Shown in pieces: positions 7,400 to 64,000 of a stretch of DNA of 64,000 nucleotides. A model generated the notes under the pieces. The model did no database searches and was not told the DNA's origin. It saw only the letters and a list, made by a program, of their open reading frames with translations. Location: the sequence record NC_100327.1. One strand, 5' to 3'. The position numbers were made by a program, and so were the translations under genes. The stretch is from a phage. Positions within the stretch are counted from its first letter, which is position 1, and every line of letters begins with the position of its first letter.

Positions 7400-7951
7400 T
7401 TACTGACCACTGTCTGTAACCGATTTATCAGAATTGGGTGAAGGGAAGTGTGTGGTTATTTCAGCCTTAATTCCCTGAAGATCCTCAAAAGCCCCAATGT
7501 CTGTCTCAACAAACCTTACGTTAAATGTCAGCATTACCGTGGCTCTATTTTCATACGTCTGCTTATTCAACGGCACTCTTTGAGGTGAGATTGTTGAATT
7601 GTTAGAGTAGGCAAAGCACGATCCCAGAGGGAAATACTTGTCATAAAACATTGGAAGGTTTATTGCTTGCAATACTCTGCTAAGTGCAGCATATGCCCTG
7701 CCGCGATAAGCTGTTAACAGATAAGTAACAGTGTAACTGTGGGTGACGTAAGCATTACCTTCCGCATCTTGAAACTCATTATCTTCCCAAGTGGTGGGAT
7801 TGATCGCCAGGGTTTGCAAAAGTACAAACTCACCTTCCGGCTTCGGTATGGTAGAGCTTTCTGCCAGAACTACAGTTCTTCCTGTGGCAACCTTGACAAG
7901 CTTAGCGATGGTTGTTTCAAGATCAGAAAAAACTTTTTCGAAAGCTTCCAT
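7400..7951 (-). CDS. tail completion/neck protein (position-based)
   Basis: 183 aa, ATG overlapping upstream stop (ATGA). Confidence 0.4.
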   Translation of the reverse strand: MEAFEKVFSDLETTIAKLVKVATGRTVVLAESSTIPKPEGEFVLLQTLAINPTTWEDNEFQDAEGNAYVTHSYTVTYLLTAYRGRAYAALSRVLQAINLPMFYDKYFPLGSCFAYSNNSTISPQRVPLNKQTYENRATVMLTFNVRFVETDIGAFEDLQGIKAEITTHFPSPNSDKSVTDSGQ

Positions 7952-8376
7952 CAGTTTTCTCCTTCAGGCTCTTCTACCACAAAAAATCTATATCTTCCAC
8001 CACCAGACGTGACATAAGCATCACATTTTAAAACGGTAAACCACTTCAGGTCACCACGGATGTCGGGCAGTTGAATTTGATCAGCCATTGCATATGTTCC
8101 TTCGTCTGGACTATACAACTTGGTTGAGGAGTAAACTGTAAAAGCCTCGTACTGTCTGTCACCCTCAGGATTTATCTGGGAGGAGTAATCTTTAGCTGCC
8201 CTTCCTGTCAACGGCTGCACAACACACTCTAAGACATCAAACTCTTCATACTCAAGTTCTAACCCCTCGTTAGCAAAAGGACCACCAACTGTTTTGTTAT
8301 ACACTCTGTGGCGACCTTTGAATGTTTTACGGGGTATTAGCCTGTTCTTTCCTATCAGCTTATAACCTGCTGCCAC
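7951..8376 (-). CDS. neck/head-tail joining protein (position-based)
   Basis: 141 aa; GTG start with GGGGG RBS. Confidence 0.4.
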   Translation of the reverse strand: MAAGYKLIGKNRLIPRKTFKGRHRVYNKTVGGPFANEGLELEYEEFDVLECVVQPLTGRAAKDYSSQINPEGDRQYEAFTVYSSTKLYSPDEGTYAMADQIQLPDIRGDLKWFTVLKCDAYVTSGGGRYRFFVVEEPEGEN

Positions 8377-8385
8377 TCAACCCCC

Positions 8386-8850
8386 TTATTTTTGCTGTCC
8401 AATTTTAAAGGTTGCAGATTCCAGCAGCACATCGTAATGCCGCATAGCCTCGTTGAAGCCCTTCTCTTGTGCCCACTGCTCACTAACAGTAGGGTTACTA
8501 AACTGACCAGCCTCAATAACAAACTGGATAGCTTTGGCCCCTGTGTCCCCCATCTGCTTAAGAATAGCCTCTGCACTTGATCCTCTAGCCATAGCTCTCA
8601 ACAATTTTTCTGTCAAGGTCTGTAGTTGAGTGCTGTGAAATGCAAAAGCTGTCTCCATGAAATTGCGAACAGGCAGCCCGTTCCAACCGAAGTTGTGAAT
8701 GGCTGCCAATGTTGCCATATTTAAGCCTGACGGGTGAGGTTCGTCATAAAAGCCGTAGGTTATTGTTTTACTTTCAAGTCTCACAAGTTCTTTGTAGAAG
8801 CGATCTAAACGCTTTAGGTTGAACCTTGTTTGACATTTAACCTTTAGCAT
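8386..8850 (-). CDS. neck/head-tail joining protein (position-based)
   Basis: ORF track 8386..8862; start moved to ATG at codon 5 with GAGGG RBS. Confidence 0.4.
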   Translation of the reverse strand: MLKVKCQTRFNLKRLDRFYKELVRLESKTITYGFYDEPHPSGLNMATLAAIHNFGWNGLPVRNFMETAFAFHSTQLQTLTEKLLRAMARGSSAEAILKQMGDTGAKAIQFVIEAGQFSNPTVSEQWAQEKGFNEAMRHYDVLLESATFKIGQQK

Positions 8851-19860: not shown

Positions 19861-19959
19861 AGGTGCTAGGTGATGGAATCGAACCACCTATGTATTCAAC
19901 GACTACCTCGTCTATTTTCAGGATTAAAAATCCTCGCCCTTGCCAAAGGGCTTACCTAG
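19861..19959 (-). tRNA. aberrant tRNA-like element with Lys (TTT) anticodon loop and ~25-nt insertion
   Basis: About 99 nt: perfect acceptor GCTAGGT/ACCTAGC, D-arm GCCC-TTTGGCAA-GGGC, anticodon loop TTTTTAA, T-arm GGTGG-TTCGATT-CCATC; extra hairpin GACGA-ggtag-TCGTT between anticodon and T arms; 3' end ACC not CCA. Confidence 0.4.
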
Positions 19960-20057
19960 CTCAGTATGTTGACCATGTTGCTAGTCGGCGATGACGACTG
20001 TAACATTTGATAATCCGGTTCTGCTTCCGACTTTCGCTTAATTACAAGGTCAACAAT

Positions 20058-22810: not shown

Positions 22811-22812
22811 AT

Positions 22813-22900
22813 GTGTCCGTATCACGGACAGTTAGTGTCCGTATTACGGGCAGATGTGTCCGCGTGACGGACAGTAGTGTCCGTATCACGGACAGTTAAT
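22813..22900. repeat. array of 4-5 palindromic operator/iteron-like sites at ~22-bp spacing
   Basis: TGTCCGT-atc-ACGGACA twice exactly, plus variants TGTCCGT-att-ACGGGCA and TGTCCG-cgtga-CGGACA and a degenerate fifth copy. Confidence 0.7.
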
Positions 22901-56746: not shown

Positions 56747-57064
56747 ATGCAAATTGAAATCACTGGCAACGTAGAAATCACTGAAGGTATGGTGTCTTTC
56801 ATTTCCCACAAAATGTCTAAGCTGGAGCGTTTGCATCCCTCTGCCAACTATGCACGTGTGAGTGTAAAAGTTGAAAATGATCACCAGGAAGTTATGGCGT
56901 TCATTTTTGACAATTCTGGAAAAGAAGTTATTGCCAAAGCTAAAGGCAGTGATGCTTACGAGGCAACTGACCGTATGGTAGATGTTGCAGCACGTCAGCT
57001 GGCTAAATGCGGTGGAAAGAAAGGTAAGGGGAAAGGCAAAGTAAAGATTGACTTTGGAGAATGA
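56747..57064 (+). CDS. ribosome hibernation factor-like protein (HPF/RaiA/YfiA family)
   Basis: 105 aa; MQIEITGNVEITEG...KLER...VKVEN...AKGSDAYEATDRMVDVAARQLAK parallels E. coli HPF as recalled; Gly/Lys-rich tail. Confidence 0.7.
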   Translation: MQIEITGNVEITEGMVSFISHKMSKLERLHPSANYARVSVKVENDHQEVMAFIFDNSGKEVIAKAKGSDAYEATDRMVDVAARQLAKCGGKKGKGKGKVKIDFGE

Positions 57065-57073
57065 GGTGCTACA

Positions 57074-61352: not shown

Positions 61353-61652
61353 ATGTCTACAAAGGCGGCTAAATACTCCTACATGCCATCAACCTCTGCA
61401 GAGGTAGACTTTAGTTTCGATGTGTTTCCACTGTTTGAGGTGGTTCTGGCATACCCAACAATACTATCTACTCCTGAATCACTTGTGCCTGTTAAGTTGC
61501 AGAACGCTATGCATTCCATGCACTACAACAACAAATGTAGGCACAGATGGTGTCAGGACGAGGAAAAAGATTTGGATAGTTTGAGAGATTTTGACAGTCA
61601 CCTTTTGACACCTTTCAGCTACTCCAACCTTGATAAGCCCTCGTGGGTATAG
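61353..61652 (+). CDS. hypothetical protein
   Basis: ORF track 61341..61652; ATG at codon 5 with GAGGTGG RBS. Confidence 0.45.
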   Translation: MSTKAAKYSYMPSTSAEVDFSFDVFPLFEVVLAYPTILSTPESLVPVKLQNAMHSMHYNNKCRHRWCQDEEKDLDSLRDFDSHLLTPFSYSNLDKPSWV

Positions 61653-61669
61653 CAAAATATCAAATTTAA

Positions 61670-61700
61670 GACACCTAGGACGCTCTGTGGCGTCCTTTTC
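61670..61700 (+). terminator. rho-independent terminator
   Basis: AGGACGC-tctgtg-GCGTCCT followed by TTTCTTT. Confidence 0.55.
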
Positions 61701-61865
61701 TTTATCTGGTGCACGATTGCATACCTTGGGCAGTTAATCTCATTACAGAGCGTTTAAGAGCTCCCTACAAACAACTCCATATTTCGAGCGTAGCGAGAAC
61801 GCACGTCCGTTTTGACCCAAATCACCATACGCTCGGATTTTAACCAAACCCTCGCGGCGTTTCTG

Positions 61866-61894
61866 TTGACACATTACCGATCCAGTGATAGTAT
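61866..61894 (+). promoter_or_regulatory. sigma70-type promoter
   Basis: TTGACA - 17 nt - TAGTAT. Confidence 0.55.
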
Positions 61895-61926
61895 CCACAC
61901 ATAGTTTGTAGAATATGGAGTACACA

Positions 61927-62016
61927 ATGAGAACATTGTCCGAAGTTTTAGTGGTGATCCTGATGATCATTACGTCCATAGCGGCTGTTGCCGGAATACT
62001 CACGGGTGGAACATGA
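61927..62016 (+). CDS. hydrophobic micro-peptide (29 aa)
   Basis: Found by hand; ATG with GGAG RBS downstream of promoter; MRTLSEVLVVILMIITSIAAVAGILTGGT; stop overlaps next start (ATGA). Confidence 0.4.
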   Translation: MRTLSEVLVVILMIITSIAAVAGILTGGT

Positions 62017-62225
62017 TCAACACACATGTATCTGAAGAGACATCCGAAGGAGTGACCATATGTCCCTTGGATGAGCCAGTTAAAGAGGAAAACTTATATT
62101 CTGAGGACTCTTCATCTTCGTCCCAGACAGATCCTGAGGCTGATGACCTGACGTGGGAGGACATCGTAGATATCTGGTTCTCTATTATGCCTGAGCACGA
62201 AGAGTTCAGAGGTGGTAGACTATGA
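62013..62225 (+). CDS. small acidic protein
   Basis: 70 aa, ATG; Ser/Asp/Glu-rich. Confidence 0.45.
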   Translation: MINTHVSEETSEGVTICPLDEPVKEENLYSEDSSSSSQTDPEADDLTWEDIVDIWFSIMPEHEEFRGGRL

Positions 62226-62346
62226 AGCACCGAGCCCACACAGGTTCCTCATGCTAAAGCATGGCCTGAAGAGGAAAACGTGCATAATTCCTGTGCATTG
62301 GGACGTATAAAACCCTGTTCACACTCTCATTTCCAGAGGAGATTTT

Positions 62347-62562
62347 ATGAAGATAGAAATATTTGGTGGAGCTGACAACACTCGTGGCCTGATTTACCTT
62401 GAATTCGATGAATCATACCTGCCAGAGGTGTTAAATATAGACTCTGTTGCTGATGCTTTGGGAGTAAACCCTAAAGAACTCCACTCTTGTGCTGAGATCG
62501 ATGGTTGGGAGGAGACCATGAACATTGATTTCAGTGAAGTAGAGGATGAACCGCTGGACTGA
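62347..62562 (+). CDS. small acidic protein
   Basis: 71 aa, ATG with AGAGGAG RBS; MKIEIFGG start resembles family A N-termini. Confidence 0.45.
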   Translation: MKIEIFGGADNTRGLIYLEFDESYLPEVLNIDSVADALGVNPKELHSCAEIDGWEETMNIDFSEVEDEPLD

Positions 62563-62912
62563 CGCACAATTAGCTGCCCGGCCAAAGTGCTGGAAGCACC
62601 TATAACACATCTTTCAACTAAATTTCCCACCACCACAATCACTTACCTTCCACACATGACTGTTTGCTTGTTTAGTGAGCAGTCATGCCTTGACATTCTT
62701 GCCTATCCTGATAAAATTAAGTTCTTCTCTTTTCTTTTACCGAGTAATTCGGGTTTTCTGTTCTCTTCGGTTTGAAGGGGTATGGAGATACACCTGAGTG
62801 AACAGGGTGAACAACCGAACCATTGGCTATGGCATTAGCATGGCGAAGCGGACGGGTGACGAAAGAGGGGCCGGAGGACACCAGTCACTGCCATATGATA
62901 TATGGGTGATAA

Positions 62913-63473
62913 CCTGAAGAGTCTGAATAAGTGTTTAAGTACCAGTCAGAGGAAAAGGTGAATGGTAGCCGAAGGGGGGAGGGGGGTTTCTTGTATCTTT
63001 AATTTGTATATTATGTATACACTTGTAAACCAATCTCATCTGAATCTGTTTACCACACAAAGCGAATAGAGACAAATATTACCTATTAAACTTGAATTAT
63101 TTATAGAAAATACCACAACACCACTTAAGTCTTTGATTTTACACACAAATCCTACAGATATTCATCCTCCCTATTTAACATACCTGTAACATATTCCATA
63201 CTCTACCTGCCTGATCAATTTACCCAACCACATCCTCCATATTTTCCCTGTCTGTACTACCCCTGCCCCGCCGGGAGTCCCGTCATATCTGGCTTTCCAG
63301 CAAATATCGCACCCACAAATATCATTGCCTGAAGAGGGTTTCATCCCATAATACATGCCTTACCTGAAGAGCGCTTCATACACCACGTAAATTTTTTAAT
63401 TGACCTGCAATTTTCCCGTCATGACCCCATGCCCCGCCGGAGAGGTTGGCTTTTCCCACACAGACCTGAAGAG
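62913..63473. repeat. dispersed short direct repeats in non-coding DNA
   Basis: CCTGAAGAG at 62913, 63338, 63363, 63465; TGCCCCGCCGG near 63262 and 63430; TTGACCTG near 63400, 63505 and 63847; no credible ORF over ~1.4 kb. Confidence 0.55.
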
Positions 63474-64000
63474 TCAGCCAGAAATATCTGAACAGGCCCA
63501 ATTCTACCACGATTTTGACCTGACCTACAGGAGTGCTGCCAGGCGGACGAAATGGGAATACTTCTCATTCTTATAACAATTCTCAAATATCAAGGCAGTG
63601 AGGCAAATTAATAGGCTAGGCCGTTCACACAGTGGCACAACATTTGCAACCTATCTTGTGGGAGTGAATGAGAATACCTATCATTGTGAGAATAGTTATC
63701 ATTACGGGCAATTTAACATAATACCCATTATGCGCACCACTGGCGATACATACAGGGATTGATAACATGGGTTACTGTTTACGCACATAACAATTATATT
63801 TCTTATTATTTGTGGGGGATATAGTTAGCAGCCAATAGATTAGATATTGACCTGCAGACTTCTGACCGTCCAGACGTCTAAACGCCCACACAACAAGGAT
63901 TATACATACAACACTGAATGTAAACAGGACCGCAAAAATGCTACCATACAAGCTTGTAAATTTTTCATGCAGCACTTGACAAAGAGGAGAAAAACTTGTC

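What the first reader, a model, noticed from the sequence alone, without database searches (positions are those of the whole stretch)
62563..64000. Repeat-rich ~1.4-kb non-coding region at the end of the early array
After the last small gene (ends 62562) no credible ORF follows, but several short motifs recur: (A/G)CCTGAAGAG four times, TGCCCCGCCGG(G)AG twice ~170 bp apart, TTGACCTG three times, plus a G-run (GGGGGGAGGGGGG near 62975). This could be a packaging site, genome terminus or terminal-repeat boundary, a second origin, or clustered binding sites for a regulator.
Basis: seen in the sequence. Interest (0 to 1): 0.55.

Follow-up and report, generated by a model that had tools for sequence, protein, structure and literature searches.

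The report
Right genome end and terminal repeat
This gene-free stretch is the right-hand end of an rV5-like E. coli phage chromosome: its last 459 bases are the already published direct terminal repeat, and the short repeated motifs next to it are conserved, probably protein-binding sites used when the DNA is cut and packaged.

Summary

The window comes from a Vequintavirus (rV5-like, 98.7% identical to Bas48 CarlMeissner). Window 63542-64000 aligns without gaps to the annotated 459-bp direct terminal repeat (DTR) of phage Gotham. The window ends on the DTR's last base. At least nine GenBank records start or end at the same boundaries.

The finding therefore splits into three parts:
- **62650-62986:** a nearly invariant unit, made of a sigma-70 promoter and a G-rich non-coding stretch. 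Its function is unknown.
- **62987-63541:** an AT-rich spacer, then an array of CCTGAAGAG, AAATATC and CCCCGCC motifs ending at the invariant boundary GGAGTGCTGCCA|GGCGGACG.
- **63542-64000:** the DTR itself.

The CCTGAAGAG and AAATATC cores are invariant in 16 genomes, while TTGACCTG is not conserved. An AAATATC lies 44-46 nt inside the left DTR boundary in five genera.

The best reading is a short-DTR (T7-type) terminus with flanking terminase-recognition sites. The DTR identification is shown; the role of the motifs is inferred. The terminus is already published for close relatives, so novelty is low. The invariant promoter unit is the one unexplained element.

The parts
62347..62562 (+). 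Last protein-coding gene of the + strand array (context; 71 aa, phrog_12108)
   Evidence: Matches phrog_12108 at 6.8e-52. 24 of its 35 variable columns fall at codon position 3 in 16 genomes.
62655..62687 (.). Inverted repeat CATGACTG-N17-CAGTCATG directly upstream of the promoter -35 element
   Evidence: Read from the sequence. Invariant in 16 genomes.
62690..62717 (+). Strong sigma-70-type promoter TTGACA-N16-(TGa)TAAAAT, pointing towards the right genome end
   Evidence: Matches 11 of 12 consensus positions and has an extended -10; it is the best site in 61500-64000. 26 of 28 columns are invariant in 16 genomes.
62718..62986 (+). Nearly invariant, G-rich non-coding unit downstream of the promoter. 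It contains a small hairpin plus T-run (62740-62762) and one CCTGAAGAG (62913), and ends in G6AG6 (62974-62986).
   Evidence: 254 of 267 columns are invariant. For 62650-62984, mean pairwise identity is 99.05%, against 96.5% for the adjacent gene and 93.1% for 62985-63541. The + strand is 30-38% G and 7-25% C. No Rfam hit. RNA fold z = -0.55. Variable sites show no codon pattern. No E. coli homologue.
62987..63259 (.). AT-rich, G-poor, comparatively variable spacer
   Evidence: 25-37% GC and about 5% G on the + strand over about 63043-63220, rising towards 63259. Only 62% of columns are invariant.
63264..63541 (+). Motif array just inside the terminal repeat: CCCCGCC cores (63266, 63432), AAATATC (63302, 63317, 63482), CCTGAAGAG (63328, 63363, 63465) and TTGACCTG (63400, 63515). 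There are two indel hot spots, at about 63405-63425 and 63522.
   Evidence: Motif positions. CCTGAAGAG columns are 36/36 invariant and AAATATC columns 28/28, against a 64% background; TTGACCTG columns are only 3/8 and 5/8 invariant. Indels of 0-80 nt appear in the alignment. A homologous AAATATC..AAATATCA..CCTrAAGAG arrangement occurs in Septuagintavirus A73.
63530..63549 (+). Left boundary of the terminal repeat, the presumed terminase cleavage site: GGAGTGCTGCCA|GGCGGACG, with the cut between 63541 and 63542
   Evidence: 19 of 20 columns are invariant. The Gotham and EdH4 records start at GGCGGACG. A related GTGCT(N1-4)| sequence is found in KPP-1, Mt1B1_P17, BME3 and A73.
63542..64000 (+). 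Right-hand copy of the 459-bp exact direct terminal repeat; non-coding
   Evidence: Gapless 459/459-position alignment, 95.9% identical, to Gotham's annotated repeat_region 1-459 = 136567-137025. The same boundaries fall at record ends in EdH4, ECP2309, YN3, Pr121LW, ECP2303 and bov10K2/22_2/25_3. Published lengths are 459 bp (PMC7471380) and 458 bp (PMC6563267).
63585..63592 (+). AAATATCA, 44 nt inside the repeat
   Evidence: The same motif lies at +44 to +46 from the boundary in KPP-1, Mt1B1_P17, BME3 and A73. Invariant in 16 genomes.
63553..63703 (+). Three copies of the 17-mer TGAGAATAnnTATCATT (63553 with 2 mismatches, 63669, 63687)
   Evidence: No other copy with 2 or fewer mismatches in the 64 kb. 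The same motif occurs in the 328-bp DTR of Phapecoctavirus Mt1B1_P17 (positions 59 and 238) and in BME3, and a 1-mismatch copy in the KPP-1 DTR. Pangalan, magaca and Alma annotate it as repeat_region.
63975..64000 (+). Purine-rich right end of the repeat, CTTGACAAAGAGGAGAAAAACTTGTC|, which is the last base of the virion DNA
   Evidence: 27 of the last 30 columns are invariant. Related ends occur in KPP-1 (CTTGACAAGGAGAGAGAATTGTGTT|) and A73.

Best explanation
The region is the right-hand end of the linear virion chromosome of a Vequintavirus.

Shown: bases 63542-64000 are the right copy of the genus's 459-bp exact direct terminal repeat (DTR), and the window ends on the chromosome's last base.

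Inferred: these phages package by the short-DTR (T7-type) route. Replication gives concatemers with one DTR copy per junction. Terminase recognises the junction, cuts sequence-specifically at the invariant boundaries (..GTGCTGCCA|GGCGGACG.. on the left, ..AAACTTGTC|TGACAT.. on the right), and the DTR is duplicated during maturation.

Also inferred: the conserved, same-strand short motifs around the left boundary are the binding sites that position the packaging machinery, in the way the R sites of cosB do next to cosN in lambda. These motifs are AAATATC four times (one at a fixed +44 inside the DTR), CCTGAAGAG three times plus one further upstream, the CCCCGCC cores, and the TGAGAATAnnTATCATT 17-mers inside the DTR.

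The first 420 bp of the finding are a separate element: an almost invariant sigma-70 promoter driving a G-rich, non-coding, apparently unstructured transcript towards the end of the genome. Its function is unknown. It may deliver transcription through the junction, as phiOR does in T7, or prime replication.
For: Identity and position of the DTR:
- Gotham's annotated repeat (record 1-459 = 136567-137025, the two copies identical) aligns gaplessly to window 63542-64000 at 95.9%.
- EdH4, ECP2309 and YN3 carry the repeat at both record ends. Pr121LW, ECP2303 and bov10K2/22_2/25_3 start or end exactly on it.
- Related genera have DTRs of 514 bp (KPP-1), 475 bp (Jab), 342 bp (BME3) and 328 bp (Mt1B1_P17). 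In KPP-1 the DTR also sits in the gap between converging gene arrays.

Functional constraint on the motifs:
- CCTGAAGAG columns are 36/36 invariant and AAATATC columns 28/28 across 16 genomes, against a 64% background; the boundary is 19/20 invariant.
- AAATATC lies 44-46 nt inside the boundary in five genera. GTGCT lies just outside the boundary in the same five. The 17-mer is shared with Stephanstirmvirinae DTRs.
- A73 keeps the AAATATC..AAATATCA..CCTAAAGAG arrangement but has its own five-copy CCACAGAG array, as expected if the sites co-evolve with a binding protein.

Other support:
- The DNA is non-coding.
- According to PMC4837284 (citing Whichard et al. 2010), the large terminase of rV5 is similar to those of Felix O1-like phages; one such phage, UAB_Phi87, has a 608-bp DTR.
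Against: - No read data or virion-end data exist for this particular genome. Its left end lies outside the window, so the presence of the repeat at both ends is taken from relatives.
- Some PhageTerm analyses called vequintaviruses 'circularly permuted' or headful (PMC8407724 and PMC13211470). The rV5 paper also called the genome circularly permuted.
- No experiment links any motif to terminase.
- TTGACCTG is poorly conserved. CCTGAAGAG is absent from Mt1B1_P17 and BME3.
- Near-identical genomes give limited power to separate selection from recent common ancestry.
Confidence: 0.78

Rival explanations
1. The promoter-containing part is a transcription-primed replication origin next to the genome end. 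The host-RNAP promoter at 62690 makes a G-rich transcript ending at the G6AG6 run, which forms a persistent R-loop. This primes the phage's T7-like replisome at the AT-rich tract 62987-63220. The downstream repeats would be initiator or helicase-loader sites.
For: - A strong, conserved promoter.
- The non-template strand is 30-38% G for about 240 nt, then G6AG6-TTT, then an abrupt switch to 25-35% GC.
- The unit is as conserved as the best nearby genes.
- rV5 encodes a PolA-type polymerase and a gp4-like primase-helicase (PMC3606486).
- From my own recall, not tested here: the architecture resembles the T7 primary origin (promoters plus an AT-rich region), ColE1 RNA II and mitochondrial CSBII.
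Against: - Cumulative GC skew reaches its maximum here, not its minimum. By the bacterial convention that marks a terminus, and the skew is confounded with transcription direction.
- The unit is not found in KPP-1, Mt1B1_P17 or A73. In A73 the G-run sits inside the DTR, and in KPP-1 it is on the other strand.
- No replication data exist.
Confidence: 0.12
2. 62718-62986 encodes a phage non-coding RNA, such as a regulatory sRNA or a decoy, and the downstream motifs are unrelated.
For: - Near-consensus promoter, 95% invariant columns and no coding signal.
- A pyrimidine-rich 5' end followed by a small hairpin and a U-run at 62740-62762.
Against: - No Rfam family at E <= 10.
- The fold is no more stable than shuffles: z = -0.55 on the + strand and -0.20 on the - strand.
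- The few variable positions are not compensatory and break the predicted pair at 62821-62850.
- No homologue outside the genus or in E. coli.
- No clear terminator at the G-run.
Confidence: 0.15
3. The phage packages by a headful (pac) mechanism with circular permutation. The region is merely a gene-free convergence zone that ends the two converging gene arrays, and the coincidence of record ends reflects assembly conventions.
For: - PhageTerm gave 'circular permutated' for four bov phages and 'headful' for BpE1AUH.
- The rV5 paper describes the genome as circularly permuted and notes the 'non-coding' box.
- No intrinsic terminator was found after the last gene.
Against: - Several separately deposited records share the same two boundaries to the base, and four records carry the repeat at both ends.
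- 2x coverage and unique read starts were reported for Gotham.
- The revised bov records now start on DTR base 1.
- The boundary sequences are conserved across genera, including a PhageTerm-defined DTR in KPP-1.
Confidence: 0.05

Closest known systems
Annotated direct terminal repeats of vequintaviruses Gotham (MT682716, 459 bp) and EdH4/HdK5 (458 bp)
   Same: Orthologous sequence: 95-96% identity, the same length, and the same first and last bases (GGCGGACG... ...AACTTGTC). It has the same position, between the last + strand gene and the first - strand gene.
   Different: Nothing material. The published notes give only the length; they do not describe the flanking motif arrays, the boundary consensus or the conserved promoter unit.
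Short-DTR (T7-type) genome ends and concatemer-junction processing (PhageTerm class 'DTR short'; Casjens & Gilcrease end type iii)
   Same: An exact repeat of a few hundred bp at both ends, fixed ends, and short repeats in and beside the repeat. An outward-facing promoter lies a few hundred bp inside the right end. From my own recall, T7 has phiOR and pacB near its right end, and arrays of short repeats in its 160-bp terminal repeat.
   Different: This is a myovirus of about 137 kb that uses host RNA polymerase. There is no sequence similarity to T7 ends. The cleavage and duplication chemistry has not been tested. The repeat is 459 bp rather than 160 bp.
Lambda cosB / terminase small-subunit binding arrays
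   Same: Several same-orientation short repeats lie within about 280 bp on one side of the cleavage site, with a fixed spacing between the cut and the nearest site (+44).
   Different: The ends are blunt or duplicated repeats, not 12-nt cohesive ends. No small terminase subunit has been identified for these sites, and binding has not been shown.
DTRs of related genera: Klebsiella phage KPP-1 (514 bp), Phapecoctavirus Mt1B1_P17 (328 bp), Justusliebigvirus BME3 (342 bp)
   Same: GTGCT lies just outside the left boundary, AAATATCA lies 44-46 nt inside it, and there are TGAGAATAnnTATCATT-type 17-mers. KPP-1 shares the purine-rich right end and the position between converging gene arrays.
   Different: The rest of the repeat cannot be aligned by blastn. 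The lengths differ. CCTGAAGAG arrays are absent or replaced. The promoter/G-rich unit is absent.

Membership tests
Short exact direct terminal repeat (T7-type) genome terminus | The same sequence of a few hundred bp is present at both ends of the virion DNA | tested here: met
   Met for orthologous genomes. Gotham 1-459 is identical to 136567-137025, and EdH4, ECP2309 and YN3 each show two copies at their record ends. The window holds only the right copy (63542-64000), so its own left end could not be read.
Short exact direct terminal repeat (T7-type) genome terminus | Fixed, non-permuted ends: unique read starts and 2x coverage over the repeat | not testable with these tools
   No reads were available. 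The literature reports this for Gotham, EdH4/HdK5 and KPP-1. PhageTerm calls for the bov phages and BpE1AUH conflict with it.
Short exact direct terminal repeat (T7-type) genome terminus | Sequence-specific, conserved boundaries | tested here: met
   The left boundary is 19/20 invariant and the last 30 nt are 27/30 invariant in 16 genomes. Related boundary sequences occur in KPP-1, A73, Mt1B1_P17 and BME3.
Short exact direct terminal repeat (T7-type) genome terminus | Large terminase belonging to a short-DTR clade | not tested
   Literature only. According to PMC4837284 (citing Whichard et al. 2010), rV5's large terminase is similar to Felix O1-type terminases, and a Felix O1-like phage has a 608-bp DTR. 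No phylogeny was run here.
Headful (pac) packaging with circular permutation | Ends distributed around the map, with no fixed terminal sequence | tested here: not met
   Nine or more records share identical boundaries, and four carry the repeat at both ends. This is indirect, because it rests on deposited records, not reads.
Transcription-primed replication origin (T7 primary origin / ColE1 / T4 oriF type) | A promoter followed by an R-loop-prone G-rich transcript and an AT-rich unwinding region | tested here: met
   The promoter matches 11/12 consensus positions. The + strand is G-rich over 62743-62983, ends in G6AG6, and is followed by 25-35% GC. This is composition only.
Transcription-primed replication origin (T7 primary origin / ColE1 / T4 oriF type) | Replication starts there (skew polarity, marker frequency) | tested here: inconclusive
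   Cumulative GC skew peaks here rather than reaching a minimum, but the skew follows transcription direction. Initiation mapping cannot be done with these tools.
Structured non-coding RNA (any Rfam family) | A covariance-model match, a fold more stable than shuffles, or compensatory changes | tested here: not met
   No Rfam hit at E <= 10 with a meaningful score. Fold z-scores are -0.55 and -0.20. The variable sites are not compensatory.

The most novel reading that the evidence does not exclude
The almost invariant unit at 62650-62986, together with the AT-rich tract that follows, may be a host-RNA-polymerase-dependent, R-loop-primed replication origin, or a transcription-activated packaging element, placed beside the chromosome end. 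The unit consists of a sigma-70 promoter and a roughly 260-nt G-rich, unstructured, non-coding transcript ending in G6AG6-TTT. If so, this large myovirus would couple end-proximal transcription to replication or concatemer processing, as T7 does with its own polymerase. The conserved code 'GTGCT | 44 nt | AAATATC' would then define a shared terminase recognition system across Vequintavirinae and Stephanstirmvirinae.
Probability: 0.2. Interest if true: 0.55.

Novelty: already known. Interest (0 to 1): 0.3.

Why it matters
Practically, most of the ~120 matching Vequintavirus-like records listed here are deposited as arbitrarily opened circles, and the founding rV5 paper shows this stretch only as an unexplained 'non-coding' box in a 'circularly permuted' genome. 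Recognising it as the physical end plus its recognition region gives a correct zero point for these widely used therapeutic and typing phages. It also explains why assemblies often break here.

Scientifically, the boundary consensus, the AAATATC at a fixed +44 position and the 17-mers give concrete, testable candidates for the terminase recognition sites of a large group of enterobacterial myoviruses. These could be useful for engineering and for transduction-safety assessment.

The invariant promoter-driven unit is an unexplained conserved element that deserves an RNA-seq or deletion test. None of this changes current concepts of phage packaging.

Tried and rejected
- **Protein coding.** Nine ORFs had no PHROG match. 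The 67-aa ORF in the DTR is broken in 10 of 16 genomes and lacks codon-position bias. An 18-codon ORF at 62782 loses its ATG in two genomes, and variable sites in 62798-62917 (+) and 62717-62881 (-) show no third-position bias.\n- **Known RNA families and tRNA/tmRNA.** Nothing was found.\n- **Stable RNA structure.** Folds were no more stable than shuffles.\n- **Host-derived sequence.** No match in 5,426 E. coli genomes.\n- **Paralogous copies in the window.** None.\n- **Homology of the non-coding DNA outside the genus by blastn.** None; only the neighbouring gene matches Phapecoctavirus.\n- **IMG/VR scans.** A DTR 26-mer gave 1 contig. The degenerate 17-mer gave 120 or more apparently unrelated hits. 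Both were uninformative.\n- **tblastn with the neighbouring 87-aa gene to find more genera with defined ends.** Mostly vequintaviruses again.\n- **Phage I29's double hit.** This is a 594-bp internal duplication, not a DTR-DTR junction.\n- **BME3's annotated 'DTR-L'.** It is one unit of a tandem duplication in the record, so its phase is not independent evidence for the cut site.\n- **TTGACCTG as a functional motif.** Rejected as such, because it is poorly conserved.

Full report
**What the window is.** The 1,438-base finding matches 121 phage records at 90-99% identity. Nearly all are Escherichia Vequintavirus (rV5-like myoviruses of about 137 kb), and the closest is Bas48 CarlMeissner at 98.7%. 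In genomes deposited as opened circles, the region is the first part of a roughly 2.5-kb gene-free gap between two converging gene arrays. In CarlMeissner, the + strand genes end at the equivalent of window 62562, and the first - strand gene lies 2,484 bp further on. The original rV5 paper drew this gap as a box labelled 'non-coding'. It called the genome circularly permuted and noted a GC-skew switch there (PMC3606486).

**Checking the observation.** Every motif is present at the stated place.
- CCTGAAGAG occurs at 62913, 63328, 63363 and 63465, with a fifth copy at 62265. The window has 7 copies, all on the + strand, against 0.61 expected.
- TGCCCCGCCGG occurs only at 63264 and 63430, 166 bp apart.
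- TTGACCTG occurs only at 63400, 63515 and 63847, although three copies per 64 kb is what chance gives.
- The G-run GGGGGGAGGGGGG is at 62974-62986.

Against 1000 dinucleotide-preserving shuffles, the region has far more recurring 8- and 9-mers than expected; no shuffle reached the observed counts. It is not the most repeat-rich part of the window, though.

No ORF is credible. None of nine ORFs matches a PHROG family, whereas the last real gene does at 7e-52. The longest ORF, 63772-63975 on the - strand, is interrupted in 10 of 16 relatives and shows no codon-position bias. In the real gene, 24 of 35 variable sites fall at position 3.

**The key result: the terminal repeat.** Two papers report that vequintaviruses have short terminal repeats. 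[quoted passage not shown] For EdH4 and HdK5 the redundancy is 458 bp (PMC6563267).

Gotham's record annotates the repeat at 1-459 and 136567-137025, and the two copies are identical. The repeat aligns to window 63542-64000 over all 459 positions, without a gap, at 95.9% identity. The window therefore ends exactly on the last base of the repeat. This is best explained if the window is the right-hand 64 kb of a record deposited with its physical ends.

Other records share the same boundaries:
- EdH4, ECP2309 and YN3 carry the repeat at both record ends.
- Pr121LW and ECP2303 start or end on it.
- The revised bov10K2, bov22_2 and bov25_3 records start on its first base.

Related genera have comparable repeats: KPP-1 514 bp by PhageTerm, Jab 475 bp, BME3 342 bp, and Mt1B1_P17 328 bp identical at both record ends. 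In KPP-1 the repeat also sits in the gap between converging arrays.

Some PhageTerm runs have called vequintaviruses permuted or headful. I weigh these below the concordant base-exact boundaries, but no reads could be examined here.

**Anatomy of the finding.** A MAFFT alignment of the window with 15 vequintaviruses divides the region into four parts.

(a) 62650-62986. This part holds an inverted repeat (62655-62687), a near-consensus sigma-70 promoter (TTGACA-N16-TGaTAAAAT at 62690-62717, 11 of 12 matches) and about 260 nt ending in the G-run.
- It is 95% invariant, with mean pairwise identity of 99.05%. The adjacent gene is at 96.5% and the next 550 bp at 93.1%. Among five close genomes it is as conserved as the best nearby coding DNA, but not uniquely so.
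- Its + strand is strongly G-rich.
- It is not coding and matches no Rfam family.
- It folds no better than shuffles, with z = -0.55.
- It has no homologue in E. coli or outside the genus.

(b) 62987-63259. This part is AT-rich and G-poor, and only 62% of its columns are invariant.

(c) 63264-63541. This is the motif array.
- The CCTGAAGAG cores are invariant in all 16 genomes (36 of 36 columns), although their flanks vary.
- The CCCCGCC cores are largely conserved.
- TTGACCTG is not conserved (3/8, 5/8 and 6/8 columns).
- There are two indel hot spots. One, with 0-80 nt of partly palindromic or duplicated sequence, lies immediately before the invariant boundary GGAGTGCTGCCA|GGCGGACG.

(d) 63542-64000. 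This is the repeat itself, and it is non-coding. It contains AAATATCA at +44 and three copies of the 17-mer TGAGAATAnnTATCATT, which occurs nowhere else in the 64 kb at 2 or fewer mismatches. It ends in the purine-rich sequence CTTGACAAAGAGGAGAAAAACTTGTC.

**Footprints across genera.** The non-coding DNA cannot be aligned by blastn beyond the genus, but short elements recur at fixed positions.
- Left boundary: GTGCTGCCA|GGCGGACG in the window, GTGCTA|GACGGACA in KPP-1 (boundary defined by PhageTerm), GTGCTT|AACGCGA in Mt1B1_P17 (boundary defined by record ends), the same in BME3, and CTGCTGCCA|GGCACGGCGAC in A73 (predicted).
- In all five, AAATATC lies 44-46 nt inside the boundary.
- The 17-mer occurs in the repeats of Mt1B1_P17 and BME3, and a 1-mismatch copy in the KPP-1 repeat.
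- The right end is similar in KPP-1 and A73.
- A73 keeps the arrangement AAATATC..AAATATCA..CCTAAAGAG but has its own five-copy CCACAGAG array. KPP-1 has TTGACCTGAAGTGTCAGCC right after its last gene and three AAAATATCA-like copies before the boundary.

Conserved position combined with genus-specific repeat sequence is what one expects of sites that co-evolve with a DNA-binding protein.

**How it most likely works.**
- Shown: this is the right chromosome end with its 459-bp repeat, and the flanking motifs are under constraint.
- Inferred: the phage packages from concatemers by the short-DTR (T7-type) route. Terminase cuts at the two invariant boundaries, guided by the AAATATC, CCTGAAGAG and 17-mer sites clustered on and beside the left boundary, in a way functionally comparable to cosB next to cosN in lambda. 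The repeat is duplicated during maturation.
- Inferred: the indel hot spot directly at the boundary fits a site of repeated breakage and repair.
- Open: the promoter-driven unit points towards the end. It may supply transcription through the junction, as T7's phiOR does (my recall, not tested), prime replication, or make an unstructured RNA. None of these could be tested here.

**Rivals.**
- A transcription-primed origin fits the sequence of promoter, G-rich stretch, G-run and AT-rich tract. Against it, the cumulative GC skew peaks here rather than bottoming, and the unit is absent from other genera.
- A structured ncRNA has no support.
- Headful packaging is contradicted by the shared base-exact ends.

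**Novelty.** The terminal repeat of this genus is published and annotated in GenBank, so the core of the finding is already known. As far as the searched literature shows, three things are not described: the boundary consensus, the fixed AAATATC position across two subfamilies, and the invariant promoter unit. These are modest additions and testable leads rather than a new kind of system.

Noticed in passing
window 22811-22896: Four tandem copies of a 21-bp unit, GTGTCCGTATCACGGACAGTA. Each is itself an inverted repeat (TGTCCG-TATCA-CGGACA). They lie in an ORF-poor stretch near the cumulative GC-skew minimum and the divergent strand switch. The surrounding 21.6-24.2 kb is the most repeat-rich part of the window. 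The array looks like iterons or operators and is a better origin candidate than the finding.
   Followed up: partly
L004 (CarlMeissner) 7438-8484, just beyond the window end in circular maps (the left unique end): The first kilobase after the left DTR copy is also gene-free and highly repetitive. TGACM occurs four times, phased 10/9/10 bp, directly after the repeat. TTTACAC(A) occurs about five times at a 16-bp period and resembles a DnaA box (TTWTNCACA). AAGGCAACTAT/ATAGTTGCCTT inverted repeats occur several times. There is an 18-nt perfect inverted repeat and a 20-nt exact direct repeat, GCCATGCCATTCGTTTGCAT, twice.
   Followed up: partly
window 19862-19960 (-): ARAGORN reports a 99-nt tRNA-like gene with a four-base anticodon (atcc) inside the cluster of six ordinary tRNA genes.
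   Followed up: no
window 63522 (alignment of 16 genomes): Directly before the DTR boundary, relatives carry insertions of 0-80 nt. Some duplicate the boundary-proximal GGAGnGCTGCC element. Others are flanked by a GACCTACAGG direct repeat and contain small hairpins. This could be a recombination or repair hot spot at the cleavage site, or a tiny mobile insert.
   Followed up: partly
GenBank records MG0656xx: About 19 records named 'Campylobacter phage', with host listed as C. jejuni, are 90-96% identical to this E. coli Vequintavirus region. They are probably mislabelled or contaminant assemblies.
   Followed up: no
L146 (phage I29, ON286975) 301-1352: A 594-bp tandem duplication spans the DTR left boundary: GGCGGACG, preceded by the same 30 nt, occurs twice. 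It is either an assembly artefact or a real duplication.
   Followed up: partly
window about 56750-57065 (by homology to L004 185-502): CarlMeissner annotates a 'ribosome hibernation factor' among the small + strand genes about 5.8 kb upstream of the finding.
   Followed up: no
window 62974-62986: The G-run length varies. This window and APECc02 have G6AG6, while 13 relatives have G5AG6 and MiataMamis G4AG6. This is either homopolymer sequencing error or real slippage.
   Followed up: partly
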